This document shows, piece by piece, positions 21,991 to 62,900 of a stretch of DNA of 64,000 bases. The stretch covers positions 118,105-182,104 of the forward strand of contig CAWDUZ010000004.1 in NCBI GenBank assembly GCA_963805515.1, read 5' to 3'. Every line of letters begins with the position of its first letter. Position 1 is the stretch's first letter. The notes beneath the pieces are model-generated. The model was not told the DNA's origin. It was given only the letters and a program-made list of their open reading frames with translations, and ran no database searches. This DNA is from an uncultured Chloroflexia bacterium (GTDB lineage Bacteria; Chloroflexota; Anaerolineae; Anaerolineales; Villigracilaceae). The position numbers were made by a program, and so were the translations under genes.

Positions 21991-22148
21991 AATAAGGGGA
22001 AGAGAGACAGGAAACAAGAAAGAGGAATAGGGGTGGGCGGCGGGGATTGATTTTTCATCGGAGGGTCAGCATAATGGATAAGTGGCGGCGATCTTCGCAC
22101 CTGCGGCAACCATTGGCGCAAATCCTGCAATTCGATCGGAAACCTTGA

Positions 22149-22700
22149 ATGACACTAGAGCGGACGCTGGAAAGTATCGAGGCCAATATCAATGCGGGCG
22201 ATCTCGGAAAGGCGAGAGACCGACTGCATGGGCTGCTTTCCAGCTACCCGGATAACCTGGAACTGCGAAAACGACTGGGCGCGGTCTACTGGCGGCTTCA
22301 GATGCCGGAGATGGCCGGACGATATTGGTATTTGGAAGAAGCGAAGGACTTAGACATGACTGCCGCCTGCAGGCGCTTCGAAGTGCAATTCGGGAATGAT
22401 CCGGCTTACCTGCTGTTCGCGCTCAAGTTCAGGGGCGAAGTTGAAGCTATCAAGGATACGTTCGCGGGCCAACTGCTGTTGGATCTCGATAAACGGGCAC
22501 GGCGGAAGCACTCCTGGTATGAGGACTACCGAAAGCGCGGCGCCGGAAAGTATCGCCAGTATAAGTATGAGGCCGGGAAGCACAAGACCCGGGATCTGAT
22601 CATCAAGTGGGGCTGCATCACCGCCGCAGTCCTAATGGTTTTGGTCTTCCTTGCCGGGTTGATCGAGGGTATAGGGAGTCTGATTGGGAGGATAAGGTAA
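22149..22700 (+). CDS. Hypothetical protein with C-terminal TM anchor (183 aa), paralog of 23972-24519
   Basis: MTLERTLESIEANINAGDLGKARDRLHGLLSSYPDNLELRKRLGAVYWRL... with C-terminal TM GCITAAVLMVLVFLAGLIEGIG; no known domain. Confidence 0.5.
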   Translation: MTLERTLESIEANINAGDLGKARDRLHGLLSSYPDNLELRKRLGAVYWRLQMPEMAGRYWYLEEAKDLDMTAACRRFEVQFGNDPAYLLFALKFRGEVEAIKDTFAGQLLLDLDKRARRKHSWYEDYRKRGAGKYRQYKYEAGKHKTRDLIIKWGCITAAVLMVLVFLAGLIEGIGSLIGRIR

Positions 22701-22815
22701 TGGGCAGTCCGCGCGCGCTGAGGGCTGGGAATCCGGCAAAGGATGAAGCAGTTCAAGGCGGGAAGTTTTAGGATAGAGCCTGCTTGGAGTTCGAATCTCT
22801 AATCCCCAGCCTACA

Positions 22816-22849
22816 GAATACCGCCTTGTGCGGTATTCTTGTTTGTTTT
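22816..22849 (+). terminator. Rho-independent terminator (gaataccgc-cttgt-gcggtattc + TTGTTTGTTTT)
   Basis: Perfect 9-bp stem, 5-nt loop and a T-rich tract, downstream of ORF 22149-22700. Confidence 0.6.
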
Positions 22850-22898
22850 GCGCATCAATGGAGGTACGGAAGCCAGGGACCTATTCCACGGTTGCGAT

Positions 22899-23159
22899 TC
22901 AGATCCTCTTTCGCTTGAAATAGACAGCATGGGAACCCTGGCCTGTGATACCCGTTGCGACCATTTCCCATCCTTCATTGCCAAGTTTTGCAATTCTTAT
23001 AGCGACTTCATTCCTCTGCGAGCTCTCTTCAACCGCGGGCAGGCTCTCGACCTTCTCGCCCTCGGCTGTGAAGAAGATCAGCCTTGCCCGGCGCATGATT
23101 CCGCCGCCGAGCAAATCCTCAAATCTGCAATATTCCCATTTTTCCTGGCCTGTTGTCAT
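22899..23159 (-). CDS. DUF4177 domain small protein (86 aa)
   Basis: KWEYCRFEDLL...LGNEGWEMVATG...SHAVYFKRKRI fits the DUF4177 pattern (WEYK...GWELV...fKR). Confidence 0.55.
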   Translation of the reverse strand: MTTGQEKWEYCRFEDLLGGGIMRRARLIFFTAEGEKVESLPAVEESSQRNEVAIRIAKLGNEGWEMVATGITGQGSHAVYFKRKRI

Positions 23160-23425: not shown

Positions 23426-23971
23426 TGGCTGGAGAGAGCGCCGATGTCAGAAGTGGACAACCACAAGCGCCCAATTCTATACCCACGATATGTCCGAGAC
23501 ACCCTCGGGGTCATCTTATGGGCATCCATACTTGTTAAGGCCCTCGCTCTTCGACCTCGACCAGTACTTTGTCCAATTCGCTAGCTCCAAATATCGCTTG
23601 GATTCTGAACTTTCGCATCTTTGCCCTGCTCGCTGGTGATCGCGGTCTTGTGGGTTGTATTGGGAAATCGGCGTTTTCTACCGAACTTCCTATATGTCGT
23701 TGGATACCCGCTGGTCGTGCTTTTTCTTTAAAATTGCCACTGTTTATTGCGACGTCGATGGGTGATGTTCCTGATTTTACTTCCATCGATTTTTGATACT
23801 CTCGTCAGCTTTAACAACTTTTGTCCTTTATGCGACAATTATTGTATCTGCCGCCGTGGTGTTTTTCTCCAGACAGCCAATTATGTTGGTTGCGGGCATG
23901 GTGGGCTTTGGTTGCCGTTAATCTTCAGCGTGTCTGCCTTTGGCTCAATGCAATTCGATCGGAAACCTTGA

Positions 23972-24519
23972 ATGACACTAGAGCGGACGCTGGAAAGTAT
24001 CGAGGCCAATATCAATGCGGGCGATCTCGGAAAGGCGAGAGACCGACTGCATGGGCTGCTTTCCAGCTACCCGGATACCCTGGACTCGCGAAAACGACTG
24101 GGCGCGGTGTACTGGCGGCTCCAGATGCCGGAGATGGCCGGTCGATATTGGTATTTGGAAGAAGTGAAGGACCTAGACATGACTGCCGCCTGCAGGCGCT
24201 TTGAAGCGAAATTCGGCGATGATCCGGCTTACCTGCTGTTGCTCAAGTTCAGGGCGAAGTTGAAGCTATCAAGGATACGTTCGCGGGCCAACTGCTGTTG
24301 GATCTCGATGAACGGGCACGGCGGAAGCACTCCTGGTATGGGGACTACCGAAAGCGCGGCGCCGGAAAGTATCGCCAGTATAAGTATGAGGCCGAGAAGC
24401 ACAAGACCCGGGATCGGATCATCAAGTGGGGCTGCATCACCGCTGCGGTCCTAACAGTTTTGGTGTTCCTTGCCGGGTTGATCGAGGGTATAGGGAGCCT
24501 GATCGGGAGGATCAGATAA
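23972..24519 (+). CDS. Paralog of 22149-22700 (frameshifted near 24250 in this assembly)
   Basis: N-terminal 90 aa nearly identical to copy 1. The C-terminal ...RKHSWYGDYRKRGAGKYRQYKYEAEKHKTRD...TM continues in ORF 24298-24519. Confidence 0.45.
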
Positions 24520-24633
24520 TGGGCAGTCCGCGCGCGCTGGGGCTGGGAATCCGGCAAACGATGAAGCAGTTCAAGGCGGGAAGTTTTAGGATAGAGCCTG
24601 CTTGGAGTTCGAATCTCTAATCCCCAGCCTATA

Positions 24634-24667
24634 GAATACCGCCTTGTGCGGTATTCTTGTTTGTTTT
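24634..24667 (+). terminator. Rho-independent terminator (copy of 22816-22849)
   Basis: Identical hairpin and T-tract. Confidence 0.6.
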
Positions 24668-24716
24668 GCGCATCAATGGAGGTACGAAAGCCAGGGATCT
24701 ATTCCACGGTTGCGAT

Positions 24717-24974
24717 TCAGATCCTCTTTCGCTTGAAATAGACAGCATGAGAGCCCTGGCCAGTGATACCCGTTGCGACCATTTCCCAGCCTTCATTGCC
24801 AAGTTTTGCAATCCTTATGGCGACTTCATTCCTCTGCGAGCTCTCTTCCACCGCGGGCAGGCTCTCGACCTTCTCGCCCTCGGCTGTGAAGAAGATCAGC
24901 TTTGCCGCAATGAATCCGCCGCCGAGCAAATCCTCAAATCTGCAATACTCCCATTTTTCCTGGCCTGTTGTCAT
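24717..24974 (-). CDS. DUF4177 domain small protein, paralog of 22899-23159
   Basis: MTTGQEKWEYCRFEDLLGGG...VYFKRKRI; an alternative upstream start exists at 25016. Confidence 0.55.
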   Translation of the reverse strand: MTTGQEKWEYCRFEDLLGGGFIAAKLIFFTAEGEKVESLPAVEESSQRNEVAIRIAKLGNEGWEMVATGITGQGSHAVYFKRKRI

Positions 24975-51721: not shown

Positions 51722-54323
51722 TCAAGAGGGCTTATGAAGGATCTGCAGGATCTCGAGCGTCTCCTGCTTTCCACCGATGCCGTTCTCGCCGCCAGGGCCG
51801 ACACATGAGGGGCAGCCATCCTTGCACTCACATTCGGAGACCAATTCAAGGGCACGCGCGATCAGCTCGGCGTGCATCTCGTACAGCTTCTGGCTGAAGC
51901 CGATGCCGGCGGGGACCTGATCGTAGAGCACGACGGAGGGGCGGGCCGTGTCCTCATCAGACGGGGAACCGCCGCGCAATGTTCCGGCGGCATCGGTGTG
52001 GGAGCCGAGGTCGCTTGGGTCGCACATGAGGAATAGCGGCGCAAGCTGGCTCAGTACGTAGGACAGCCCTGCCAAGCCGGAACGAATGCGGACGTTCTGC
52101 TCGGCCTTGTGATGGCAGGTGGGGCAGAGCGTGACGAGGTTGTCCATGCGGTTGGCCTCGGCCCAGGAAGTGAAGGTGCGGAAGGGGACCTTATGATGGA
52201 CATCGTGCTCGCGGCCGTTCTCGGGCGCACCGCAAACCTGGCAGCGGAAGCCATCACGCGTGCGGACCGCGAGGCGGATGCGCGGCCAGTTGGGACCGTA
52301 GTCGTTGGGATCGTTGGTCCACAGCGCCGCTGGAGCGAAGCTTATCAACGGCCTCATTGGAGAGAGTGAGCCAGTAGCCGGTGGTCTGCAACTGGGTTGC
52401 CGGCATGTCGAGCGGAGCTTCGCCCAAATTCTCCTGCGTGAACCAGCGCAGCTTCTTGAAACCCACGACCTGCGTGGTCACCTGGATCTCGCCCCAACCT
52501 TTTTCGCCGCCGGGGACGGGTGATAATGCCGACTCGGTGAGAACCTGGATCTCGGAGTGCTGCTGGGCTTCGGTGTAGTAGTCCAGCGCGACGGCGGTGA
52601 GCGTGGCGACCTTCTTCTCGAGATTCAGATCATGCACGAAGTATTGCTGGCCTTCGTGGATATAGATGGCGTTTGGATGGATCATCCAGTAGGCGCTGGC
52701 GAGGTCCACCTGCCCGATGATCTGCGGTCGATCATCGGTGGTCTGAAGGACGACATTCTCCGGCGAAGCGGAACGCAAGGAGATATTGGCGGCGGGATAG
52801 GAATCGGACATCCAGAAATATTGATCCTGGGAGGCATGGACTTCCTGATTGGAGGACAGGTACTCGAGGATCTCCTGCACGGTCTGCGGCGAGAGCGAGC
52901 CGAAGCCTTCGCCCTTCTGGAAGGGCAGCTCGAAGAGGGCACAGCGCAGATGATTGAGCAGGATCAGAAGATGATCGGGATTGATGAGCGCCTGCTCGGG
53001 CGACTTGCCGAAGAAATAATCGGGGTGATGGGCAAGGAACTGATCGAGCGGATTGGCAGAGGCGACGAGCACGGATAGGGCGGGCGCTTCGCCGCGGCCC
53101 GCGCGCCCGGACTGCTGATAGACGCTGGCAATGGAGCCGGGATAGCCGACCAGCAGTGCGGCCCCCAACCCGCCGATATCGATGCCCAACTCGAGGGCGT
53201 TGGTGGCTACGACGGTCTGGAGGGTGCCGGAGCGCAGGCCCTGCTCGATCTCGCGGCGCTGAGACGGGAGGTAGCCGGAGCGATAGCCGCGGATGGGGGA
53301 GTTGAGGAGTCGGGAGTTGGGGAGTCGGGAGTTGGGAGTCGATATTCGGGAATCGGAGGTGAGCTGCGGCCTGGACGATGATGCCTGGCGGTCGTCCTGG
53401 AGATAGGTGAGCATCATCTCGACGCTGCGGCGCGAGCGTGCAAAGATCACGGACTGGACATGGGCGGCGAGCAGATCCTGAGCGAGGCGCACGCTTTCCA
53501 TCAAGGAGCTTTTGCGCAGGCCGAGGGCCTCGTCTATAACCGGCGGATTGTAGAGCAGGAAGTGACGCTCGCCACGCGACGAGCCGTCCTGGTCGATCAG
53601 CTCAACGGGGGCTTCGATGAGCCGGGCAGCAAGCTCCTGCGGGTTGCCGATGGTGGCGGAGGTGAGGATGAACTGCGGGTAGGAGCCGTAAAAGTGAGCG
53701 ACGCGCTTGAGCCGGCGGATGACATTGGCAATGTGCGAGCCGAAGACGCCGCGATAACTGTGCATCTCATCGATCACGACGAAACGCAGGCCGCGGAAGA
53801 AGTCGGCCCAGTTGGTGTGATGCGGGAGGATGCCGGTATGCAGCATATCGGGGTTCGAGAGGATGATGCGGGCGCTCTTGCGGATGAGCGAGCGCTGGCC
53901 CTGCGGCGTGTCGCCATCATAGATGGCGCCGGGGACGTTGACCGCCGGAGACTTGAAGGCTTCCAGCACGGAGAGCTGATCCTGGGAAAGGGCCTTGGTG
54001 GGGAACAGATAGAGGGCGCGGGCGGAAGGCTCGACAAGCAGGGAGGCCATTACAGGCAGGTTGTAGGCGAGGGTCTTGCCGCTGGCGGTGCCGGTGGCGA
54101 GGACGATGTTGCTGCCCGCGCGGGCGGCGACCCATGCATCCAACTGGTGACTGTAGAGCATGGAGATGCCGCGCCTTGACAGGGTCTCGCGCAAGGCAGC
54201 GGGCATATCGTCGGGCAGGGGACGCGTCTGCGCGGGCCGCGCGGGCCGCGTCTGCCAAATGGGGAAGTTGGGAGCGGTCTTCGGGTCGGTGCGCCAGAGG
54301 TTGATGAGAGAGTCTAGAGACAT
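51722..54323 (-). CDS. DEAD/DEAH-box helicase with C-terminal DUF1998 zinc-finger domain (MrfA/YprA/Lhr-like), about 865 aa. There is a frameshift near 52300
   Basis: Walker A GTASGKT, DEMH (DExH), SATIGNP..., HRSGRAGR region. The C-terminal ORF 51722-52357 has the CxxC...CxxC DUF1998 (CQVCG...CPTCHHK...CPSC). An in-frame PNSRL-type tandem repeat at 53281-53345 is encoded. Confidence 0.75.
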
Positions 54324-54379
54324 GGGAGCGGGAATAGTTTACTCTGTGCGGCGGCCTTCGACGAGTAGGAGTGAATAGG

Positions 54380-55030
54380 ATAACCAGGTGGAGCATCGGC
54401 AATTCGTATCGCCGATGTGCGCAGGCCTTTGGAGGTTCAATGGAGGCCATATATGCGACATTGGGACGCGGCGTACGGAGTAGGCCTGCCATATATGGGG
54501 GTCGAAAACCGGCTTTTTACCACCTTGCTCTCTAGAAAAACAATGAGGTTCAATGGCGCTTTTGATGACTTGAAGCGCTCCATTGATTAAGCCGACTTTG
54601 ACCTTTTGGAGGGCATGGCGGACATAAAGGACATTAAAGGGAAGAGCAGGCGCACCTCCGGGGTCAATGGGAGGGAAGAGTGAATAGAGAATCGAGAATG
54701 GATCATGGGAAGACAATCGGTGATAGGCATGGTGTGTTGCTGAGAGTGGCGAGTAGAGCATGCGCCGCAAAGAAGACTTTGGTAGGCAAAGCGCGGTTGG
54801 TGGGAAGAGCAGTAGACACGAAGACAGGTAAACACGGCCAGAGGCAAGCATGGGTTTTCTCTACGGTGAGTGTATCACCAAAATACATAATGGCGGCGGG
54901 ATGCCGCCTTACGTGATCATTATATAGAACGGGTGTTCTGGCGTCAAGGAGAAAGTTTGTGCGCCCGTGTACGCCCTTGTATTAGTACTACAATGTTTTG
55001 TCGAAGGGCCGCTTTTTGGCCCGCAGATAC
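54380..55030 (+). repeat. Dispersed repeat element copy C (inverted partner of copy A at 14521-15060), ending in a promoter-like 10-mer iteron/palindrome module oriented toward the RHS locus
   Basis: See copy A. The end module is gtgcgcccgtgtacgcccttgtattagtactacaatgttttg, i.e. TTGTAC-N16-TACAAT. Confidence 0.6.
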
Positions 55031-55076
55031 CATCCCCGCCTTTGGGGACCCCGCCTGGCGGGAAAGAACGGAACTG

Positions 55077-55364
55077 TGATTTGTCTGATTGGAATGAGGA
55101 CTATGATCGGAGGGTGGCAAATCATAGTGTTCATTCAACCATTGTATTCAGGGTTCCAGAGGAGGCGTGATGGCCGGCAGCTGACTGATCTGTGTGATGA
55201 AATGAGGATGAGGGAGGCTGGCAAATCATGGTATTCATATAATCAGTCTAATCACGGTTCCAGACGAAGCGCGGAGGCGTCTGAACCATGATTTATGTGA
55301 TTGAATGAGAACTATGATGGAAAGTGGGCGGTAACTATGGTTCCTGCCAGCCTTCGAAGCGGCG
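55077..55364. repeat. Three tandem degenerate repeats of about 100-110 bp (TGATYTRTSTGATKRAATGAGRA...GGCAAATCAT...GGTTCC...GGCG)
   Basis: Repeat units start at 55077, 55187 and 55289. They lie between repeat element C and the GxxExxY/RHS locus. No coding support. Confidence 0.6.
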
Positions 55365-55442
55365 ATGAATAATAGGGAGCATAAGGTGATAAACGAGCAA
55401 TACCTCCACTCAGAATTGACGAGTTAAATCATCGGCTGTGCA

Positions 55443-55800
55443 ATGGAGGTGCATAAGACACTGGAGAATGGCTTTCAGGAAGTCATTTATCAGCGCGCAC
55501 TGGAAATCGAAACGTCGAATCAAGCCCTGGCATTCAGCCGTGAACACGAAATGGAGATCTTCAACAAGGGTGTCAAGATCGGAAACCGCCGTGTGGATTT
55601 CTTTGTTGAGCAGAAGGTAATGGTCGAGATCAAGGCTGTCGTTCAATTAGAGGATGTTCATTTGGCACAAGCCAATCAACTATCTGGAAGCTTATGCGGC
55701 TGGAGGTCGGCTTGCTTCTCAACTTTGGCGCTCGGAGTTTACAATTCAAGCGTGTGATGAGGCCCGAAGGGCTCATGCAAGAACACGGGCAAATCATGGT
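55443..55800 (+). CDS. GxxExxY family protein (PD-(D/E)XK-like), with 2 apparent frameshifts
   Basis: ...ENGFQEVIYQRALEIE (GxxExxY), ...RRVDFFVEQKVMVEIKAV.... The family C-terminus (INYLEAY...GLLLNFGARSLQFKRV) is in shifted frames. Confidence 0.55.
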
Positions 55801-55829
55801 CGATTCATAGAGATCATTCCGATCATGAG

Positions 55830-57121
55830 TTCAAAACAGAATGTGACCAGCGTGAGCGCCACGGGTGGAAGCGACGGCTTGTATAGTGAAACCTACGGCT
55901 ATAACCACACCAGCTGGTAATTTGCAAACCAAGGGCAGCCGCACACTGAGCTATGGAACGGATGGGCTTGGAGCGCCTGCGCTGAGCGGTGACAATCAAG
56001 AGTCCAGCCCACGCAAAATTGCGCATGCGCGATCTCTCGATCAGCCGGCACCGGTAATACATACAGCTACGACTGCAACGGCAACATGACCAGCGGACTG
56101 CCAATGGCCAGACGTTCACGATGGGCTACGATGCTGAGAACCGACGGGTGAGCGTCTCGGGTGCAGTCACGGCAAGCTTCGTATATGACGGCGAGGGCAA
56201 CCGAGTGAAATACCACGATCGGCACATTGACCACGACGTTCGTGGGCAATTATTATGAGGTAACGGGAACACAGGTCAACAAGTACTATTACGCTGGCGG
56301 CTCACGCGTGGCGATGAACGCCGGAGGGACGTTGTATTATTTGCTCTCCGACCAACTGGGAAGCACGAGCTTGACAGTGAAGGCCTCAGACAGTAGCACC
56401 TCTGAGATGCGCTACACAGCCTGGGGAGAGACTCGCTATACCTCCGGCACGACGCCTACCAATTACACCTACACCGGCCAATATAGCAACGTCGGCGATT
56501 TCGGGCTGATGTTCTATAATGCCAGGTGGTACGACCCTTATCTTTAACCGCTGGACCCAGCCCGATAGCATTGTACCCAATATATATGATCCACAGGCTT
56601 GGGACAGGTTCGCCTATGTCGATAATAATCCTGTCCGATATAATGACCCATCGGGGCATTGTCTTGAGGACGCTTGTATACTGGAGTTGGTGGTCATCAC
56701 GGCTGCAGTTGGCATGTACGCGTATGTAGCTAGCCCGCAATTTAGAGATGCGGCGAACGCGTTCGGAGCCAATCTAGCGAACTTCATGGACAAAGCGTTT
56801 GCCGTAGGCGAGAAAAAGCCACTGACAGAAGATGAACAAGACAAGGTAGATCACTTAGAAAAAGACTCGGAAGGCTTCTTGAGGAAGCACCCTGACCTGG
56901 AGGAGGAAGCGCAGAAGAAAGCAAGAGGAGAGACACTTGAAAAAGGTGACCATCCAGGAGAAGCGGAGCAATGGGTACAAGGACTAGAAAACGATATAGC
57001 GCATCTTCAAGATGCTCGGCGATCACGCGATAAAGAATCTCAAGCCGCAATAGATCGGGCAATTGAACGTGGGCAACGCTGGATTGATGAGATAAATCGG
57101 AAGCTATACGGAAAAGAATGA
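55830..57121 (+). CDS. Orphan RHS-repeat 3' fragment ending in the RHS junction motif and a C-terminal polymorphic-toxin domain (CT1, about 150 aa of unknown function). The repeat region has multiple frame breaks
   Basis: YD/RHS repeats (...YSYDCNGNMTSG..., ...QTFTMGYDAENRRVSVSGAVTASFVYDGEGNRVK..., ...TFVGNYYEVTGTQVNKYYYAGGSRVAMN...LYYLLSDQLGSTS...). Junction GDFGLMFYNARWYDPYLNRWTQPDSIVP...DRFAYVDNNPVRYNDPSGHC, then a divergent CT. Confidence 0.65.
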
Positions 57122-57672
57122 ACAACATCGACAAATTGAAATTGCGGTTTCAAGAACTCAGGGCAAGATCCTTGCAAGAGAATGCCAAGATTCACGGCAC
57201 GGGTCTTTGGGAATCCTGGCATGAACTAGCCGACGCGCAATATGAACCAGCCAAGGAGTTCTTTATCGAACGACTGGATGATGCACGTTCGGCTTGGAGG
57301 ACGGAGAGTATTAGCTTGCTTGGTTTTCACTACAAATTAGACGATCAAGTTCTGGAGAAGATTCGTGCTTTGTTGCTCCATGACACCGATTCAGGCGTGA
57401 GAATTGTGGCTGCGTCGGTCTTAGGGAGTCAAGGCCGGTATCCAGAGAAAGCACTTCTTCATGCTTTGGATCATGATTCCAATAACCTGGTGAGGGAGTT
57501 TGCCTTCTCTGCTCTTCTAGAGCTTGCAACCGTACCATATCTGGTGAAAAGAAAAGAGCTAAGGAGAGTCAAATCCGAAGAAACAAGCGCAAGTCTTGAA
57601 CAGGTGAAACGAGTGCTTCTTGAACAAAACCTGTTCTCCCAAGCAGCTTTGTTGGACGAAGCGGGAGGTTAA
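57118..57672 (+). CDS. Putative cognate immunity protein for CT1 (alpha-helical, HEAT-like)
   Basis: ORF starts in an ATGA overlap with the CT1 stop, which is the typical toxin-immunity arrangement; no known domain. Confidence 0.45.
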   Translation: MNNIDKLKLRFQELRARSLQENAKIHGTGLWESWHELADAQYEPAKEFFIERLDDARSAWRTESISLLGFHYKLDDQVLEKIRALLLHDTDSGVRIVAASVLGSQGRYPEKALLHALDHDSNNLVREFAFSALLELATVPYLVKRKELRRVKSEETSASLEQVKRVLLEQNLFSQAALLDEAGG

Positions 57673-57729
57673 CATAATCGGATGTTAGCTGTATGCCGCG
57701 CCGCTACAAAATTCCGTGCCTGCCGCCTG

Positions 57730-59274
57730 TTACGGAGGCGAACATTCTTGCACCGAGCCAAACAGTTCGCGCAATTGGCCGGCGATGCTCAGTCTGTCTG
57801 AGTAACTGAGTGTGGGTTGCGCAAGTTGCTTGACCCATCCCAGCACTTGCGTTCGTTCCTGCACCTTAACAACTTCATCGCTTTTCTCTTGATTTGCCTC
57901 CAGCGCAATCTCGAGTCTCTGCTCGATGCGCTGCATGGCCGCGAAGTAATCGTCTGCCACGGTCTGGTCATGCGCCCGGGCATAGATCATGGTGGTGTTG
58001 AGCTTCTTGTGCCCCAGGAAGCGCTGGATGGAGGTGATGCGGCAACCGGCATTCAGCAGCTGCGTGGCACAGGTATGCCGCAGCCGGTGGGGATAGACCT
58101 TCACACCCACCCGCTCGCCAGCATATTTCAAGTGATCCCGGATGATATCCTTTCGCAGGGGCGCATTGCGGTACAGGAAAACGTGATCGCCGCTGCCACC
58201 GCCACGCACTGCCAGGTACTCCTGCAGGGCCTGGATAGCGGTCTCCGCCAGGTACACGGTGCGGTCTACCCGCCCCTTGCCATCCCGCACGCTGAGCCGC
58301 TTGTGACCCAAATCCAGGTCTTCCAGGCGTAGTTCTTCGAGTTCGCCCAGCCGCAAGCCGCCCTGCCAAAGCAAATAGAAGGCCGCCCGGTCCAGCAGGG
58401 CAATACGGCGGTGGCTGGCCAAGACTGCCTCCCGCACAACTCGTTCGAACTCGTCCCGCAGCTTCTTCACCTGCTCATCGGTGAGGTACTTCGGCAGCGG
58501 CTCGGGGATTTTGAGGCCTGGAATGCGCAAGAGCGAGTTGGGCACGGTATAGCCTTCTTCCTGCAGGAAGAGCAGGAAGCTGTGCAAGCAGCGCAACTCG
58601 GCGTTCAGGGTCTGTGCGGATATCCCAGCTTGCAGGCGCATGTCCAGGTAGTCCAGAACGAACTGCCGCTTCACATCCGCCAACTGTTGCACGCCGCGCT
58701 CGGCGCACAGGAAACGCCACACCCGGCCGTGCTTGTTCCAAAAGCCCCGGAGGTTCTGCTCCAGCCGGGCAGAGCGCCAGTTACGCTGCAACACCTTTTC
58801 ATATCGCTCCAGTTCATTCACCAGCCAGGCAGGCAATCCTTGCGTGTGAGCGGGCACATCGAACGGCCGGACGTGGCGCTGCTCCCCCAGCCCGCGTTCG
58901 AGACGGAGATAGCGACGCAGCATGAGGAGAGCCAGCCGGCAGTTCTTGATCCAACCCGCGCTCACTCCTTTGGCCTGCACGTACTGGAGCGCACAATCCA
59001 AATCTGTATCTGGATCAAGCTGGTGATAGGGCTTGAGAGTCAGAGCGAAGACATGCCCGGCCATCTTGAGGTGATGCAACCGGATAACCAACTCACTGAT
59101 CCCGCCGCTGGACAACCAAGTGCGATAGCGTTCCAGAAACTCGAGGTTTTCTTGTGGCCAGTACTTTGTTGGCAGGGGGCGCGGCGTATCGGGCGGCAGA
59201 CGCTTATTGCGCATGTAGTGCAAGCCGAGGTCATAGCTTTCGGCCAATGTGCGGGCCGCATGGATGGGGCACAT
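57730..59274 (-). CDS. Tyrosine recombinase (phage-integrase family), large form of about 514 aa with a duplicated N-terminal SAM-like/core-binding region
   Basis: Catalytic domain ...HRLRHTCATQLLNAGCRITSIQRFLGHKKLNTTMIYARAHDQ (R..HxxR...Y). The ATG at 59272-59274 is adjacent to the upstream recombinase stop. Confidence 0.8.
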   Translation of the reverse strand: MCPIHAARTLAESYDLGLHYMRNKRLPPDTPRPLPTKYWPQENLEFLERYRTWLSSGGISELVIRLHHLKMAGHVFALTLKPYHQLDPDTDLDCALQYVQAKGVSAGWIKNCRLALLMLRRYLRLERGLGEQRHVRPFDVPAHTQGLPAWLVNELERYEKVLQRNWRSARLEQNLRGFWNKHGRVWRFLCAERGVQQLADVKRQFVLDYLDMRLQAGISAQTLNAELRCLHSFLLFLQEEGYTVPNSLLRIPGLKIPEPLPKYLTDEQVKKLRDEFERVVREAVLASHRRIALLDRAAFYLLWQGGLRLGELEELRLEDLDLGHKRLSVRDGKGRVDRTVYLAETAIQALQEYLAVRGGGSGDHVFLYRNAPLRKDIIRDHLKYAGERVGVKVYPHRLRHTCATQLLNAGCRITSIQRFLGHKKLNTTMIYARAHDQTVADDYFAAMQRIEQRLEIALEANQEKSDEVVKVQERTQVLGWVKQLAQPTLSYSDRLSIAGQLRELFGSVQECSPP

Positions 59275-59275
59275 G

Positions 59276-60154
59276 TCACATCGACCCCGTGCGGGATGCC
59301 CAGCCTTCGATCTTCCCGCAGGCGGCATAGTAATCCGCACACACCTGGCTGTCATTGGCCATGACATAGGTCTGCGTGCTCTCGATCCAGCGATGGCCCA
59401 GCAGCTTCTGGATGGAGGTGACGGGCACATCGGCGTTGAGCAGGTCGTTGGCGAAGGTATGGCGCAGGCGATGGGCGCTGAGGACTAATCCGGCCTGTTG
59501 CCGATAGCGCACGAGCCGTTTGTGGATGGCGGTGGTGGAGAGACCGTCTTGCAAGTAGCTCAGGAAGACGAACTCGCTGGCAACCTTCGGGCGCTCCAGC
59601 AGGTATGCCCGCAAGGCGCGTTCGGCTTGCGGCGAGAGGTACACGGCGCGCTCTCGGGAGCCCTTGCCCGGCACCACGATGCGCGGGAAGGTCTCAGCCA
59701 GATAGAGGTCTGCCAGTTGCAGGCTGGCGACTTCCGCAATGCGCAGCCCGCCACGCAGCATGAGCAGGAACATGGCGCGGTCGCGCCTATCGGTGATGAC
59801 GGCAAAGAAGGCCTGGAGGTCCTGTTCCGGCACCGGCCGCGGCAAACGCTGCTGTTCACGCAGCAGGTGGCGCCTGGGATGCACCGGGCAGGCCAGCGTA
59901 TCATCCTCCACCGAGAGAAAGGCATAGAATGCCACGACAGACGCCAGGCGGCGGTTGATGGTGGAGGCCTGGAAGCCCCTCTCGCTCTGCACGGCCACGA
60001 AGCGGTCTATGTCATGAAACGAGATCCTGTCGGGCGGACGGTCCCCCACGACCTGGGCGAAGAAGCGCAGATCATAGCCATAGTCCTTCCAGGTGCGCGC
60101 CCCGGGCGAACGGCGGCGGGTCCAATTGACGAAGCGTTCGATTTCGGCTAGCAT
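59276..60154 (-). CDS. Tyrosine recombinase (XerC/XerD-like, about 293 aa), immediately upstream of and co-oriented with the large recombinase
   Basis: ...AHRLRHTFANDLLNADVPVTSIQKLLGHRWIESTQTYVMAN...; GGAGG SD before MLAEIERF. Confidence 0.8.
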   Translation of the reverse strand: MLAEIERFVNWTRRRSPGARTWKDYGYDLRFFAQVVGDRPPDRISFHDIDRFVAVQSERGFQASTINRRLASVVAFYAFLSVEDDTLACPVHPRRHLLREQQRLPRPVPEQDLQAFFAVITDRRDRAMFLLMLRGGLRIAEVASLQLADLYLAETFPRIVVPGKGSRERAVYLSPQAERALRAYLLERPKVASEFVFLSYLQDGLSTTAIHKRLVRYRQQAGLVLSAHRLRHTFANDLLNADVPVTSIQKLLGHRWIESTQTYVMANDSQVCADYYAACGKIEGWASRTGSM

Positions 60155-60255
60155 GAAGAAGCCTCCTACGAGCAGAATTTTGGACAGGTATCCGCATTCT
60201 ACTCGCAGGAGGCTCTCACACCTCACCGGGAAGAAACGTGGTTAAAGATAAGTGA

Positions 60256-60864
60256 CCCGCCCTGGGACGCTTTGCCCAGGCGGATAGCGTCGTGCCGGAC
60301 GGGGTGCAGGGCTATGATCGGTACGCGTATGTAAACAATGATCCGATTGGGCGCGTAGACCCCACGGGACACTATGGCCAATGTCGAGACGGGGACAGCA
60401 ACTACAAATGCAACCATATCATCCCGCACCAGATGCAGCTCGATCAGCAGCAGGCGCTGACGTTAGCACTCCAACACCAGATCTTATGGGCCTGGCAAAT
60501 GAGCCGGATAATGGAATGAGGGTTAAGCTGCCAAGGGCTGTCCTGCTTCGGCCTGGGCGGCATCCCTGGAGGCGGGTTAGGCGGGAATGTCCGCGATGGT
60601 ACATTGGCTTTCGGCCAGTTCCAAAGCTTAGGAGGCGGACCCAATTGGAAAAAGATTGCGACGGGCGCAGCTCTTGTCTTGGCAACTGATGTCTCTGTGG
60701 TCATTGTGGGTGTTGGCGTTTACATGTCATGGGAAATCGTTGTGCCTATTCTCGGCGAGGCGGCGATAACCGAGTACCCGTGGGTGGTAGTATTTGGCAG
60801 TACAGTCATCGCTCTGAACTACAATGGCGTGCAGATGATGGTGGAGGGTATTAAAGGACAATAA
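60256..60864 (+). CDS. RHS C-terminal tip cassette CT2. It begins exactly at the right half of the RHS junction motif and runs into a Gly-rich/TM toxin-like domain interrupted by one in-frame TGA
   Basis: PALGRFAQADSVVPDGVQGYDRYAYVNNDPIGRVDPTGHY...QMSRIME*GLSCQGLSCFGLGGIPGGGLGGNV...IATGAALVLATDVSVVIVGVGVYM... all in one frame with a TGA at 60517-60519. No upstream RHS body (a stop sits at 60253). Confidence 0.45.
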
Positions 60865-60927
60865 TGGCGTAATGCCAGTCTGGACCTATATTTTCCTACA
60901 TTTTTCTGGGAACTCGAGGAGGCTCCA

Positions 60928-61221
60928 ATGAAAGACCCACTCATGTTGATGATAATCATATTCAATTTTATCATCCTAGCACCGATTAGCGTAATTCTGC
61001 GGTCATGGCGAGAACGGGGCACATTAACCGAAAAGAAATTCGCCATAACGTTGACAGCATATTTCAGCTTTTCATTTGTGACTCCTCTAATACCTGTAAT
61101 GATTGGCTATCCCCAAACAACCGCATTGGTCGATGCAGGTGCACTGCTGGTACTCTGGTGCATCGGCTATCCGTGCCTGCGTTGGCTTTATAGACAGTTC
61201 GACTCGCCGAGGCGTCGGTGA
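60928..61221 (+). CDS. Small 3-TM membrane protein, candidate immunity protein (paralog of 61385-61654)
   Basis: 97 aa; C-terminus ...CLRWLYRQFDSP resembles ...ARWIYRQFEPHK in the next ORF; AT-richer DNA. Confidence 0.4.
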   Translation: MKDPLMLMIIIFNFIILAPISVILRSWRERGTLTEKKFAITLTAYFSFSFVTPLIPVMIGYPQTTALVDAGALLVLWCIGYPCLRWLYRQFDSPRRR

Positions 61222-61384
61222 TTACCGCAATTGAACCGACGGTCCGGAGATTGAATCAGGAATTCAAAAAATTGGCCGTGAAGGCGATGAAGCATGGCGT
61301 TCTTCTCGCAATTTACTCCTGTGCAAAGCTATCGTCAACTTACGGAATCGACAGCTTGAAGTTTACTAGAGTCAGGATGCAGAA

Positions 61385-61654
61385 ATGAAGCTCTTTGGAT
61401 TCGTATGTGCAATTCTCTTTTGGCTAGGTGTGATCCGGATGCAGATTCGGTGGCGTACGCAGGGCAAGCTCAACGAGGCGAGCTTCGCCCTTTTCCAAGT
61501 TGCCGCTTTGGGGCTTCTAATCTTGGCCGGATTTCTTCTGTTCTCAAATACATGGCAAGTAATGGTAGGAGGGATTGTGCTCTCAACATTGTCGATGACT
61601 TTTGGACTCCCAGTGGCTCGATGGATCTACAGGCAGTTCGAGCCGCACAAGTGA
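61385..61654 (+). CDS. Small 3-TM membrane protein, candidate immunity protein (paralog of 60928-61221)
   Basis: 89 aa; paralogous C-terminal motif. Confidence 0.4.
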   Translation: MKLFGFVCAILFWLGVIRMQIRWRTQGKLNEASFALFQVAALGLLILAGFLLFSNTWQVMVGGIVLSTLSMTFGLPVARWIYRQFEPHK

Positions 61655-61715
61655 TCACACATTCTGTGGGTATTGGTGACGTCTTTTGACCTATTCCAGT
61701 CGGTGCAACGCACCG

Positions 61716-61795
61716 CGCCATCGCCGACTTCGGGCTGATATTCTATAATGCCAGGCGGATAGCGAAGGGACAGCAGCGACCGGTGGAGGTTTAGT
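61716..61795 (+). other. Isolated left half of the RHS junction (AIADFGLIFYNAR), followed at the 14-bp core by unrelated sequence and a stop
   Basis: gacttcgggctgatattctataatgccagg is 28/30 identical at DNA level to the CT1 junction at 56492-56521. It diverges exactly after ...aatgccagg. Confidence 0.5.
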
Positions 61796-61945
61796 ACATC
61801 AAAGGTTCTACCCGCTCCTGAAGGTTCTGCCTGCAAGGTGTTCGAAGGCCTAAATCCATGCGCAGAATAAGAGGGGTTGCTTTCCGGGATGCAATTTGAT
61901 TACGGTTTCAGGGAGGCGGGGGTTCGAGCGCTATAATAGCCGCCG

Positions 61946-62395
61946 ATGAACTACTCGGCGATCACGGAACATCTCTTTGTAGGCACCAGCCCGCGGCGAA
62001 GTGACTTTGAAGTGCTGCGGAAGATGGGCGTAGGGCTGGTGATCAATATGCGCTTCATGCCGGGGCCGCGTCCAGCGAGAGGCGAGCCGGGGCTGCGCTA
62101 CGTCTGGCTGCACACCTTCGACAATCCGCTGCTGCCGATCCCCTTGCGGGCGCTGATGCAAGGGGTGCAACTGGCTTTGGAGGAGATCAAGGCCGGGGGG
62201 AAGGTGTACACCCATTGCGCGGCGGGCCGGCACCGAAGCGTGGCGATGGCCGCGGCGATCCTGATCGCACAGGGTTTGGCGCCGGAGGGGGCGATGAGAC
62301 TGATCAAGGAGCAGCGACCGATTGCCGACCCGCAGGCGTACCATATCCGCAGGAGGATCGAGTTGTTTGCGCGGAAGTGGAGCGCGCAGCAATGA
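61946..62395 (+). CDS. Dual-specificity/tyrosine protein phosphatase (CX5R)
   Basis: VYTHCAAGRHRSVAMAAAIL (HCxxGxxRS P-loop). Confidence 0.7.
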   Translation: MNYSAITEHLFVGTSPRRSDFEVLRKMGVGLVINMRFMPGPRPARGEPGLRYVWLHTFDNPLLPIPLRALMQGVQLALEEIKAGGKVYTHCAAGRHRSVAMAAAILIAQGLAPEGAMRLIKEQRPIADPQAYHIRRRIELFARKWSAQQ

Positions 62396-62399
62396 GGGG

Positions 62400-62900
62400 A
62401 AAAAGTCATTATGGCTCGTAGTGCCCGGACTAGTGCCCGGCCCAAATCAAAAACGATTTGGTCCGGGCACTAAAATTTCCGAAAATAAATAGGGCTGGGT
62501 AAGAGCACCCAGCCCTATTTATTTTCGGAGGGCTTGCACATTAGCACGTGGGCAGAACTGAATTACAGGAAGAAGAAAACAGGGCCGATGGATTTTCGGA
62601 GGGCTTGCAGATTGGGAAAACGATTGATGCAAGGAGATTTTGGCAGGCTTAGCGTTCCTGTTCGCATATAGTAAAACGTCCCGCAGGTTTGCGCATCAAA
62701 CAAGGCGCTGGGAGACTGTTTCTTAAATGGTGACTACTCGCAGAGACCCTACCCCGACCCTCCCCTAAAGGGGAGGGAGACAAGCCGAATTTCGAGATAT
62801 GGTGGGAAAACACCACCATATCTCGAAATTCGGAAGCAAGCACAACATGTGAGCACGCAGCAGAGGACGTAAGAAACAGTCTGAGAGGAACCTGCGGGAC
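62400..62900. repeat. Cluster of nested palindromic (REP/MITE-like) elements between convergent genes
   Basis: gtgcccggcccaaatc/gatttggtccgggcac; ccgaaaataaatagggctgggt/acccagccctatttattttcgg; 2x TTTTCGGAGGGCTTGCA. Then a roughly 215-bp element with TIRs acgtcccgcagg (62686) / cctgcgggacg (62882) enclosing the hairpins ccctcccc-taaa-ggggaggg and ccgaatttcgagatatggtgg/ccaccatatctcgaaattcgg. Confidence 0.65.

What the first reader, a model, noticed from the sequence alone, without database searches (positions are those of the whole stretch)
60276..61764. 14-bp direct repeats (CCAGGCGGATAGCG) bound a 1.5-kb cassette and split an RHS junction into right and left halves
The identical 14-mer occurs at 60276-60289 and at 61751-61764. 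At the first copy it is immediately followed by the right half of the RHS junction, preceded by a stop. At the second copy it is immediately preceded by the left half (..ttctataatgccagg). The flanks outside the 14-mer are unrelated. So the segment core-[right half+CT2+two membrane ORFs+left half]-core looks like the linear form of a circular cassette opened at a core site. Circularising it would regenerate a complete YNAR-core-WYDP-like junction, as expected for a site-specifically integrated cassette. The left-half DNA (gacttcgggctgatattctataatgccagg) is 28/30 identical to the intact CT1 junction (56492-56521), far more conserved than the surrounding coding sequence, consistent with a recombination site rather than protein-level constraint alone.
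Basis: seen in the sequence. Interest (0 to 1): 0.8.

Follow-up and report, generated by a model that had tools for sequence, protein, structure and literature searches.

The report
Recombinase element inserted in RHS junction
The repeated 14-mer is a shared scrap of two decayed copies of an RHS toxin gene's core-to-tip junction, not a recombination site, but 19 bases from it ends a 3.7-kb mobile element with two recombinases that inserts a new toxin tip into that junction, an arrangement repeated in 16 related genomes and not described in the papers I searched.

Summary
The 14-mer CCAGGCGGATAGCG is present only at 60276 and 61751, with the junction halves placed as described. The cassette reading fails its own test. 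The two copies are read in different frames (AQADS versus ARRIA). Joining them gives FYNARRIASCRTG...*, which lacks 34 nt (RWYDPALGRFA) and is out of frame with CT2. The 14-mer has no dyad symmetry, and six other isolated 14-mer pairs lie within 2 kb elsewhere in the window. Copy 2 aligns to the reconstructed native junction with a single 34-nt gap between TGCCAGG and TGCCCAGG, so it is a decayed distal junction relic. A 95%-identical strain has the same relic but different DNA upstream. The actual site-specific element lies next door at 56537-60257. It carries CT1, a HEAT-repeat immunity gene and two intact Xer-like tyrosine recombinases. It is bounded by perfect 13-bp inverted arms (CTTATCTTTAACC / GGTTAAAGATAAG) and sits in the Asp-Pro codons of the junction, which displaced CT2. 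Sixteen Anaerolineae loci, fetched by recombinase homology alone, show the same architecture. Arm variants covary within elements, some elements are stacked in tandem, the toxin tips are diverse, and one locus keeps an uninterrupted paralogous junction for comparison. This looks like recombinase-driven RHS tip displacement, which the literature I searched does not describe.

The parts
55870..56535 (+). 3' fragment of an RHS core with several frameshifts, ending ..GQYSNVGDFGLMFYNARWYD. This is the left half of the junction that was interrupted.
   Evidence: Three-frame translation. Rhs_assc_core match of the adjoining tip. tblastn of 56227-56520 hits the core ends of 12 related loci.
56537..56549 (+). 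Left arm of element E1 (attL): CTTATCTTTAACC, embedded in the codons P-Y-L-(N) of tip CT1. The extra T relative to the consensus CTTATCTTAACC shifts the frame.
   Evidence: Exact reverse complement of 60240-60252, and the only two matches in the window. Conserved at the same place in 16 loci.
56519..57121 (+). CT1, the toxin tip carried by E1. It is a 200-aa ORF starting at an ATG inside the junction, and its N-terminus NRWTQPDSIVP..YVDNNPVRYNDPSGH is the RHS right half.
   Evidence: Rhs_assc_core positions 43-76. No Pfam toxin domain.
57118..57672 (+). Putative CT1 immunity gene encoding a HEAT-repeat protein of 184 aa.
   Evidence: Pfam HEAT_2 4.4e-07. The role is inferred from its position directly after the tip.
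57730..59274 (-). recB, a tyrosine recombinase of 514 aa. It is Xer-like and has RHR-Y motifs, including HRLRHT and LGH..TTMIY.
   Evidence: Pfam Phage_integrase 2e-33. NCBIfam XerA/XerC-like but below cutoffs. Alignment to XerC-like 4a8e. The start is fixed by the 100%-identical 514-aa P0241.
59276..60154 (-). recA, a tyrosine recombinase of 292 aa. It is Xer-like and sits 1 nt upstream of recB, so the two probably form an operon.
   Evidence: The start ATG is preceded by GGAGG and is conserved in all loci.
60156..60214 (-). Conserved leader hairpin in front of recA. The stretch CCUCCUG can pair with the Shine-Dalgarno sequence CAGGAGG.
   Evidence: Inverted repeat I11. Conserved in 13 distinct leaders, but the pairs are almost invariant, so there is no covariation support.
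60240..60257 (+). Right arm of E1 (attR), GGTTAAAGATAAG, plus the spacer TGACC. Element DNA ends here.
   Evidence: The terminus GGTTAAGATAAG(Y)GATC is conserved in the loci, and variable target sequence follows it.
60256..60864 (+). CT2, the displaced tip of the interrupted RHS gene. It starts at the Pro codon of ..YD|PALGRFAQADSVVP, and it is a pseudogene with an in-frame TGA at 60517-60519 ahead of a Gly-rich membrane domain.
   Evidence: P0003 (197 aa) aligns across 60256-60858 in one frame with E 2e-27, and P0001 carries the intact junction FGLMFYNARWYDPAIGRFAQADSVVPDG.
60276..60289 (+). 14-mer copy 1, covering codons (A)QADS(V) of the CT2 junction.
   Evidence: An independent RHS junction in L007 carries nearly the same string, GCCCAGGCGGATAGT.
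60928..61221 (+). immA, a 97-aa membrane protein and putative CT2 immunity gene.
   Evidence: Homologous (E 8e-26) to the gene directly after the CT2-like toxin P0003 in L021.
61385..61654 (+). immB, an 89-aa paralogue of immA and probably an orphan immunity gene.
   Evidence: tblastn E 6e-08 to the L021 immunity protein. Shared C-terminal motif RW[LI]YRQF (D10).
61721..61764 (+). Distal junction relic. It consists of a 30-nt core end (ADFGLIFYNA) fused to (R)QADS codons, and 14-mer copy 2 is at 61751-61764. It lacks 34 nt of the native junction.
   Evidence: Global alignment to the reconstructed native junction shows a single 34-nt gap. The relic is conserved in strain L023.
61765..61922 (+). 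DNA between the relic and the phosphatase gene, with no RHS features. It is conserved at 95.6% in strain L023 but is not alignable in more distant relatives.

Best explanation
The two 14-mers are homologous leftovers of the same conserved coding stretch (Ala-Gln-Ala-Asp-Ser) of an RHS core/tip junction. They are not a crossover core. The locus is a decaying RHS tip array lying between a helicase gene and a phosphatase gene. Shown: copy 1 lies in CT2, whose junction was cut in the Asp-Pro codons 19 nt upstream by a 3.7-kb element, E1 (56537-60257). E1 carries its own start-less toxin tip (CT1), an immunity gene and two Xer-like tyrosine recombinases. It is bounded by 13-bp inverted arms that together form a dif-like site (arm, 4-6 bp spacer, arm), and the left arm is written in the tip's own codons P-Y-L-N. 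Inferred: the recombinase pair recombines the palindromic site on a circular form of the element with the conserved TGG TAY GAY CCN (W-Y-D-P) sequence of an RHS gene. This fuses the incoming tip to the resident core and pushes the old tip downstream, which is a site-specific form of RHS C-terminal displacement. Copy 2 belongs to an older, more distal displaced junction. That junction lost 34 nt by slippage or microhomology deletion between TGCCAGG (..NAR) and TGCCCAGG (..FAQA), and its tip is gone. The fusion joins the YNAR codons directly to the QADS codons and so recreates the same 14 letters in another frame.
For: Frames and missing bases. Copy 2 aligns to the native junction, rebuilt from 56487-56535 plus 60256-60310, with one 34-nt gap. 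The AQADS string GCCCAGGCGGATAG also occurs in an unrelated displaced junction, L007. Element evidence: two intact tyrosine recombinases, and perfect 13-bp inverted arms that are the only two matches in the window. In 16 Anaerolineae loci retrieved by recA homology alone, a right-half junction follows the conserved terminus GGTTAAGATAAG-YGATC. An RHS core end joined to PYLN.. (CTTATCTTAACC) lies 3.7-4.6 kb away, beyond recB. Arm variants match within an element: GGGTAATATAA at both ends in L002 and L008, and the extra base at both ends in the window. L002 contains three elements stacked head to tail. L016 keeps an uninterrupted paralogue, TGGTATGATCCGGCATTGGG, beside the interrupted copy AAGCGATCGGCATTGGG, which places the break inside GAT|CC. 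Most fusions are in frame, and some join long RHS ORFs (1171 aa in L002). The tips carry diverse toxin domains: ribonuclease, EC869-like DNase, DUF6973 and DUF7587. Relic age: strain L023 has the same relic.
Against: No circular form, empty site or excision product was observed, so mobility rests on comparative anatomy. The exact crossover is unresolved: in-frame attL sites have one more C than a simple exchange within GATC predicts, and L004 has the out-of-frame version. In this window CT1 is out of frame with a core fragment that is itself broken, so this copy may be inactive. If this is a long-read assembly, the extra base in both arms could be a systematic homopolymer error. For copy 2, the homology stops immediately after the 14-mer, which is a second breakpoint the deletion model does not explain. 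In L023 the switch from divergent to conserved sequence overlaps the 14-mer. A 34-nt deletion cannot be told apart from a larger deletion that joined two different junctions.
Confidence: 0.65

Rival explanations
1. First reader's model. The 14-mer is the crossover core of a site-specific system, and 60276-61764 is the linear form of a circular CT2-immunity cassette integrated at a 14-mer site.
For: Exact direct repeats bracket a toxin-immunity unit. Tyrosine recombinase genes lie next to copy 1. In strain L023, different DNA precedes the same left half+14-mer, and the divergence boundary (61744-61778) includes the 14-mer. The left half is 81% identical between strains, against 95.6% downstream.
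Against: The predicted circular junction is out of frame and lacks 34 nt. The 14-mer has no dyad symmetry. The neighbouring recombinases are associated in 16 loci with a different, palindromic site, and neither 14-mer copy has an arm-like sequence beside it. The left flank of copy 1 is native junction sequence that continues up to the E1 terminus. The hybrid was not found in the 16 related loci or in one metagenome scan. A 14-mer pair is not rare by chance.
Confidence: 0.1
2. Copy 2 comes from one large illegitimate or short-homology recombination event rather than a local 34-nt deletion. The YNAR codons of one junction were joined to the QADS codons of another, for example by deletion of intervening modules or by integration of a tip circle as in the Jackson model. 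The true duplicated homology is then the 38-nt core end (56492-56529 / 61721-61758).
For: The core-end repeats match at 34/38 and bracket everything from CT1 to immB. There are two immunity paralogues but only one tip between them, which suggests lost modules. Strain L023 shows module replacement with its boundary in the core end, and its left half extends 9 nt further into core homology. Jackson et al. 2009 (PMC2935791) propose tip circles that integrate by homologous recombination.
Against: The sequence signature is identical to that of a local deletion, so nothing here favours this model. The microhomology at the join is only 7-8 nt.
Confidence: 0.2
3. The 14-mer identity is coincidence. 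The left half simply abuts unrelated DNA that happens to begin CGGATAGCG.
For: Seven isolated 14-mer pairs lie within 2 kb in this window. Nothing after the 14-mer at copy 2 looks like RHS sequence.
Against: Five of the 14 bases are fixed by the YNAR codons. The other nine would have to match the bases that follow CCAGG in the neighbouring junction, in exact register (about 4e-6). The single-gap alignment to the native junction is clean.
Confidence: 0.05
4. The recombinase pair and palindrome are not an autonomous mobile element. They are a resident, integron-like or shufflon-like platform that captures or reshuffles RHS tips in place.
For: The recombinases face away from the displaced tip array, as intI faces away from its cassettes. 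rAID-1 clusters and polyimmunity loci pair Xer-like recombinases with immunity arrays.
Against: Each stacked unit in L002 brings its own recombinase pair, and the arms covary with the unit. Units occur with non-RHS flanks in L006 and L009. recB homologues form well over a hundred 90%-identity clusters, mostly on contigs of 3-6 kb, as expected for repeated mobile DNA. No attC-like repeats lie between cassettes.
Confidence: 0.15

Closest known systems
RHS C-terminal displacement arrays (Jackson et al. 2009, PMC2935791; orphan Rhs modules, Koskiniemi et al. 2014, PMC3967940)
   Same: A conserved core is followed by a variable tip and an immunity gene. Old tips are pushed downstream, where they keep scraps of the core end. 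The junction motif ends ..DPxGH. A tip circle has been proposed as the intermediate.
   Different: [quoted passage not shown] Here each incoming tip travels with two tyrosine recombinases and a defined palindromic site, and the break falls at one codon pair (Asp-Pro).
rAID-1 recombinase-associated interbacterial defence clusters of Bacteroidales (Ross et al. 2019, bioRxiv 10.1101/471110)
   Same: A Xer-like tyrosine recombinase lies next to low-GC arrays of toxin-immunity-derived genes, and an integron-like acquisition mechanism is suspected.
   Different: rAID-1 has one recombinase, co-oriented orphan immunity genes, repeated intergenic motifs and no toxin tips, and it is restricted to Bacteroidales. 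Here there are two recombinases on the opposite strand, whole tip+immunity units, a site inside the toxin coding sequence, and the host is Chloroflexota.
Xer/dif recombination and elements that exploit it (IMEX; gonococcal island excision at dif)
   Same: The site is 28 bp with about 11-bp inverted arms around a roughly 6-bp spacer. Two paralogous Xer-type recombinases are involved, presumably one per arm.
   Different: The recombinases are encoded by the element, not the host. The target is a protein-coding motif in RHS genes, not the chromosomal terminus.
Tn554-type transposons (two tandem tyrosine recombinases, TnpA and TnpB; from my own knowledge)
   Same: A short and a long tyrosine recombinase gene lie in tandem. 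Insertion is orientation-specific, targets one conserved site and makes no target duplication.
   Different: There is no tnpC-like third gene, since only 57 nt separate recB from the immunity gene. Perfect terminal inverted arms are present. The cargo is a gene fragment designed for in-frame fusion.
Integrons
   Same: Promoter-less cassettes are inserted by a tyrosine recombinase and expressed from resident signals. The recombinase gene is transcribed away from the older cassettes.
   Different: Integron-integrase models score far below cutoff (64-77 bits against 265). There are no attC hairpins. Each unit carries its own recombinases. Expression is by translational fusion to a resident gene rather than from a promoter Pc.

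Membership tests
RHS tip array formed by C-terminal displacement | Core/tip junction with the conserved ..YDP..GRF..DP.. and ..NNP....DPxGH motifs | tested here: met
   CT1 and CT2 N-termini match Rhs_assc_core positions 43-76. Motif scan.
RHS tip array formed by C-terminal displacement | Displaced tips downstream, each with an immunity gene and a partial core end | tested here: met
   CT2+immA, immB, and a core-end relic at 61721-61750. No full-length RHS gene occurs in the window.
RHS tip array formed by C-terminal displacement | Tip exchange by homologous recombination in the core end | not testable with these tools
   Only indirect evidence: 34/38 core-end repeats, and a strain difference whose boundary lies in the core end.
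   The fusion reads ADFGLIFYNARRIASCRTG..*. 34 nt are missing and CT2 is in another frame.
   2/14 self-complementary positions. No arm-like sequence lies beside either copy.
   Absent from 16 related loci and from one metagenome scan. Strain L023 has the same right-hand site with a different upstream cassette, but its left end was not recovered.
Tyrosine-recombinase integrative element (E1 type) | Recombinase(s) with the catalytic R..K..HxxR..H/W..Y signature | tested here: met
   Both proteins align to XerC-like and XerD structures, with GLR, GKG..R, HRLRHT and LGH...T..Y conserved.
Tyrosine-recombinase integrative element (E1 type) | Defined ends with inverted binding arms around a short spacer, conserved across copies | tested here: met
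   13-bp perfect arms in the window. The 28-bp palindrome GGTTAAGATAAGTGATCTTATCTTAACC is intact where elements abut (L002, L008). Arms covary.
Tyrosine-recombinase integrative element (E1 type) | Same element type at different sites, and occupied versus empty target | tested here: met
   16 loci with different displaced tips. Tandem stacking in L002. An uninterrupted paralogous junction lies beside the interrupted one in L016. The intact CT2-type junction is seen in L020.
Tyrosine-recombinase integrative element (E1 type) | Excision and integration activity (circular attP form) | not testable with these tools
   Needs read-level data or an experiment.
Integron | IntI-type integrase | tested here: not met
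   TIGR02249 scores 76.6 and 64.5 bits against a cutoff of 265.
Integron | attC sites between cassettes | tested here: not met
   The repeat search of 54000-62600 finds no recurring imperfect palindromes between the ORFs.
rAID-1 | A single 5' XerD-like recombinase followed by at least 2 co-oriented low-GC orphan immunity genes (criteria in bioRxiv 10.1101/471110) | tested here: not met
   Two recombinases lie on the strand opposite the tips and immunity genes. Identity to the Bacteroides recombinase was not tested.
Tn554 family | tnpA-tnpB-tnpC gene trio | tested here: not met
   Only two recombinase genes are present. 57 nt separate the recB stop from the immunity gene.

The most novel reading that the evidence does not exclude
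E1 and its relatives are an undescribed, abundant family of small (3.7-4.6 kb) mobile elements in Anaerolineae. They encode their own XerC/XerD-like recombinase pair and hide one arm of a dif-like site in the first codons (P-Y-L-N) of a start-less toxin tip. They integrate into the W-Y-D-P codons of any RHS gene, which instantly re-arms the resident delivery shell with a new toxin plus immunity gene and pushes the old tip downstream. That would be the site-specific route for RHS tip exchange whose existence Jackson et al. 2009 left open.
Probability: 0.55. Interest if true: 0.8.

Novelty: new variant of a known kind. Interest (0 to 1): 0.6.

Why it matters
How RHS and other polymorphic toxins acquire new C-terminal tips is still explained mainly by homologous recombination with hypothetical tip circles. 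Recombinases near such loci have been noted several times without a defined site or mechanism (Zhang 2012, Steele 2017, Ross 2019). This locus and 16 relatives supply those missing details. They show a recombinase pair, a 28-bp site, an insertion point resolved to a codon pair, tandem stacking and diverse toxin cargo. That makes the question testable, because the recombinases and the site can be synthesised and assayed. The design is also unusual in itself: a mobile element whose cargo is a gene fragment expressed only by in-frame fusion to the host gene it targets, with its att arm doubling as coding sequence. For the original finding the lesson is cautionary. Short exact repeats inside families of conserved junctions arise from homology plus small deletions and need not mark a crossover site.

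Tried and rejected
(1) Exact-sequence look-ups of immA, the phosphatase and the HEAT protein found nothing on record, so the source genome was reached only later through recB (P0241). (3) I looked for an inverted RHS remnant at the left edge of the island (54518-54542, I4), but the minus-strand translation shows nothing RHS-like, so it is a chance match. (4) I looked for an E1-type arm near copy 2 (GGTTTAGTACATC at about 61787), but it matches only about 7/13 positions and was rejected. (5) I tried to define the chromosomal empty site from relatives. L024-L027 carry an approximately 500-aa membrane-protein gene between the helicase and phosphatase genes, and homology to the window resumes only at about 61923. 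The region just after copy 2 therefore cannot be assigned to chromosome or island. P0126 returned no DNA. (6) I tested the recA leader hairpin for covariation, but the pairs are nearly invariant, so there is no support beyond conservation. (7) Seven full-text literature searches and six papers opened yielded no description of a junction-targeting recombinase element. This shows only that it is absent from that library.
Full report
CHECK OF THE OBSERVATION. The 14-mer CCAGGCGGATAGCG occurs on the + strand at 60276-60289 and 61751-61764 and nowhere else in the window, even when two mismatches are allowed. QADSVVPDGVQGYDRYAYVNNDPIGRVDPTGH runs through and after copy 1, and ADFGLIFYNAR runs into copy 2. 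The left half is 34/38 identical to the core end in front of CT1 (56492-56529 vs 61721-61758, D5).

Several details change the picture. The right half begins 20 nt before copy 1 (CCC GCC CTG GGA CGC TTT = PALGRF, 60256-60273). Five of the 14 bases belong to the N-A-R codons of the left half. The two copies are read in different frames, AQADS at copy 1 and ARRIA at copy 2. As a bare repeat the 14-mer is unremarkable. The window contains seven isolated exact 14-mer direct pairs within 2 kb, and first-order Markov simulations give about one per 64 kb.

THE CASSETTE MODEL FAILS ITS OWN PREDICTION. Joining the end of the segment to its start at the 14-mer gives ADFGLIFYNARRIASCRTGCRAMIGTRM*. The QADSVVPDG.. 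reading is in another frame, and the 34 nt encoding RWYDPALGRFA are absent. The 14-mer matches its reverse complement at only 2 of 14 positions.

Copy 2 aligns to the native junction with one clean 34-nt gap whose ends are TGCCAGG and TGCCCAGG. I rebuilt that native junction from the window's own halves, 56487-56535 plus 60256-60310. The AQADS string GCCCAGGCGGATAG also occurs in an unrelated displaced junction in L007, so it is ordinary junction coding sequence. Copy 2 is therefore best read as an old junction that lost 34 nt by slippage between imperfect 8-nt repeats. That deletion places the YNAR codons directly against the QADS codons.

WHAT ELSE IS IN THE SEGMENT. CT2 is a single toxin gene with a premature stop. 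The 197-aa protein P0003 aligns across 60256-60858 in one frame, through the TGA at 60517 (E 2e-27). P0001 has the intact junction FGLMFYNARWYDPAIGRFAQADSVVPDG. The gene after P0003 in L021 is homologous to immA (E 8e-26) and to immB (E 6e-08). The two 'membrane ORFs' are therefore paralogous immunity genes.

THE RECOMBINATION SYSTEM NEXT DOOR. Between the CT1 module and CT2, on the minus strand, lie two intact tyrosine recombinase genes, recA (59276-60154, 292 aa) and recB (57730-59274, 514 aa). Both are Xer-like and both have the catalytic motifs.

I used recA alone to fetch relatives from one genome per species, which returned 16 Anaerolineae/Chloroflexota loci. Nearly all have the same layout. 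In the RHS reading direction it is: core end, junction, tip, immunity gene, then recB and recA on the opposite strand, then a conserved terminus, then a truncated junction leading into a different tip.

The terminus is GGTTAAGATAAG-YGATC, and it is followed directly by variable target sequence such as ..LGRFAQADT or ..LGRFTSPDS. At the other end the junction reads Y-D-P-Y-L-N-x-F/W-x-Q-P-D-S. The DNA encoding P-Y-L-N there is CTTATCTTAACC, the exact reverse complement of the terminus. Where two units abut (L002, L008) the full 28-bp palindrome GGTTAAGATAAGTGATCTTATCTTAACC is present. Its geometry of about 11-6-11 resembles a dif site.

In the window the arms are CTTATCTTTAACC (56537-56549) and GGTTAAAGATAAG (60240-60252). 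They are perfect complements and the only two matches in 64 kb. Arm variants are matched within an element: GGGTAATATAA at both ends in L002 and L008, and the extra base at both ends here. Both arms therefore belong to the same piece of DNA, and the tip between them is cargo.

L002 carries three units stacked head to tail. L016 keeps an uninterrupted paralogous junction (TGG TAT GAT CCG GCA TTG GG) next to the interrupted copy (AAG CGATC G GCA TTG GG). This places the break inside the Asp-Pro codons. Most fusions are in frame, and some join long RHS ORFs (1171 aa in L002). The element-borne tips include a barnase-type ribonuclease, an EC869-like DNase, DUF6973 and DUF7587. recB homologues form more than a hundred 90%-identity clusters, mostly on contigs of 3-6 kb and named only 'XerC/XerD/integrase'.

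MECHANISM. The anatomy, the conservation and the insertion point are shown. What follows is inferred. A circular form carries the palindromic attP. The recombinase pair exchanges it with the conserved TGG TAY GAY CCN sequence of an RHS gene. The start-less tip becomes fused to the resident core, and the previous tip, now beginning at its Pro codon behind a TGA supplied by the element, is displaced. Repeated rounds give the stacks.

In this window the target was the junction ..FYNARWYD|PALGRFAQADS.. of CT2, so copy 1 of the 14-mer sits 19 nt inside the displaced tip. This copy of the element may be inactive. The core fragment upstream is frameshifted, and the extra T in the arm puts CT1 out of frame, although an ATG inside the junction opens a 200-aa ORF. 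The exact crossover is not settled, because in-frame attL sites have one more C than a simple exchange within GATC would give.

THE DISTAL RELIC IN OTHER STRAINS. A contig from a 95%-identical strain (L023) carries the same left half + 14-mer + downstream DNA in front of the phosphatase gene. Everything upstream of about 61721 is unrelated to the window. The relic therefore predates the strain split, and modules upstream of it have turned over.

The left half itself differs at 5 of 26 positions, against 8 of about 180 downstream. The boundary lies somewhere in 61744-61778. This is expected if the core end serves as the homology for tip exchange, as in Jackson's model.

More distant relatives (L024-L027) have an approximately 500-aa membrane-protein gene between the helicase and phosphatase genes. 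Homology to the window resumes at about 61923, so the whole interval 54326-61922 is a replacement island.

COMPARISON WITH WHAT IS KNOWN. The array of displaced tips is classical RHS C-terminal displacement. However, Jackson et al. [quoted passage not shown] Xer-like recombinases next to polyimmunity loci (Zhang et al. 2012), Rhs-associated integrase-like genes in bee-gut bacteria (Steele et al. 2017) and Bacteroidales rAID-1 clusters (Ross et al. 2019) have all been reported. None comes with a defined site in the junction or a recombinase pair.

The element is not an integron, since the IntI models score far below cutoff and there is no attC. It is not rAID-1, because the number and orientation of recombinases are wrong and toxin tips are present. 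It is not Tn554-like, because there is no third gene and the arms are inverted. It works most like a self-sufficient Xer/dif system aimed at a coding motif. Seven literature searches found no description of it.

VERDICT. The sequence facts are correct. The 14-mer cassette reading is not the explanation, though its general idea of site-specific traffic at the RHS junction is borne out 19 nt away by a different and much better supported element. I rate the whole as a new variant of known kinds (tyrosine-recombinase integrative elements and RHS tip displacement), with interest 0.6.

Noticed in passing
window 22126-23148 and 23949-24963: About 1 kb is present twice as a direct repeat, 1.8 kb apart, with long runs of exact identity.
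   Followed up: no
window 55109-55330: A 66-nt direct repeat (77% identity) overlaps a 36-nt inverted repeat. It looks like a miniature repeat element and sits just upstream of the RHS core fragment.
   Followed up: no
window ~55370-55757 (+): A GxxExxY / PD-(D/E)XK-like small gene is interrupted by an in-frame stop (..HSELTS*IIGCAMEVH..). It is one more pseudogene in the island.
   Followed up: no
window 60156-60214 (-) and the same place in 13 loci: A conserved hairpin lies in the recA leader, in which CCUCCUG pairs with the Shine-Dalgarno sequence CAGGAGG. It may act as a translational brake on the recombinase, or it may be an accessory DNA site. The pairs are almost invariant, so there is no covariation evidence.
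   Followed up: partly
window 56519-56549 and 60240-60252: Both arms of this element have one base more than the family consensus (TTT/AAA instead of TT/AA). This keeps the arms perfectly complementary but frameshifts CT1 relative to the core. An ATG inside the junction codons (aATGcc) then opens a free-standing 200-aa CT1 ORF. A systematic homopolymer error cannot be excluded.
   Followed up: partly
window 60517-60519: An in-frame TGA splits toxin CT2 into a junction/N-terminal part and a Gly-rich membrane domain. Homologues P0001 and P0003 are uninterrupted.
   Followed up: yes
L016 9523-9925 and 13870-14273: A 404-nt direct repeat (94.6% identity) of the junction and tip start flanks a degenerate element in which recA is truncated and recB is missing. 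It served as the comparison of uninterrupted and interrupted junctions, but its origin (tandem paralogues or conversion) is unexplained.
   Followed up: partly
L009 11322-12727: The recB homologue is split by about 1.4 kb of inserted DNA, which makes this element 5.1 kb long.
   Followed up: no
window 54326-61922 vs L024, L025, L026, L027: In related species the interval between the helicase and phosphatase genes holds a single membrane-protein gene of about 500 aa. In the window and in strain L023 that gene is replaced by the RHS-derived island.
   Followed up: partly
L006 and L009 (flanks of the element): Two elements have no RHS sequence at either flank. L006 is followed by a half palindrome (GTGATCTTATCTTCC) and a terminator-like hairpin. 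Either insertion is not strictly limited to RHS junctions or the flanks have been rearranged.
   Followed up: no
window 62431-62529: Two adjacent near-perfect palindromes (18 nt and 23 nt arms, 6-nt loops) lie downstream of the phosphatase gene. They are probably bidirectional terminators.
   Followed up: no
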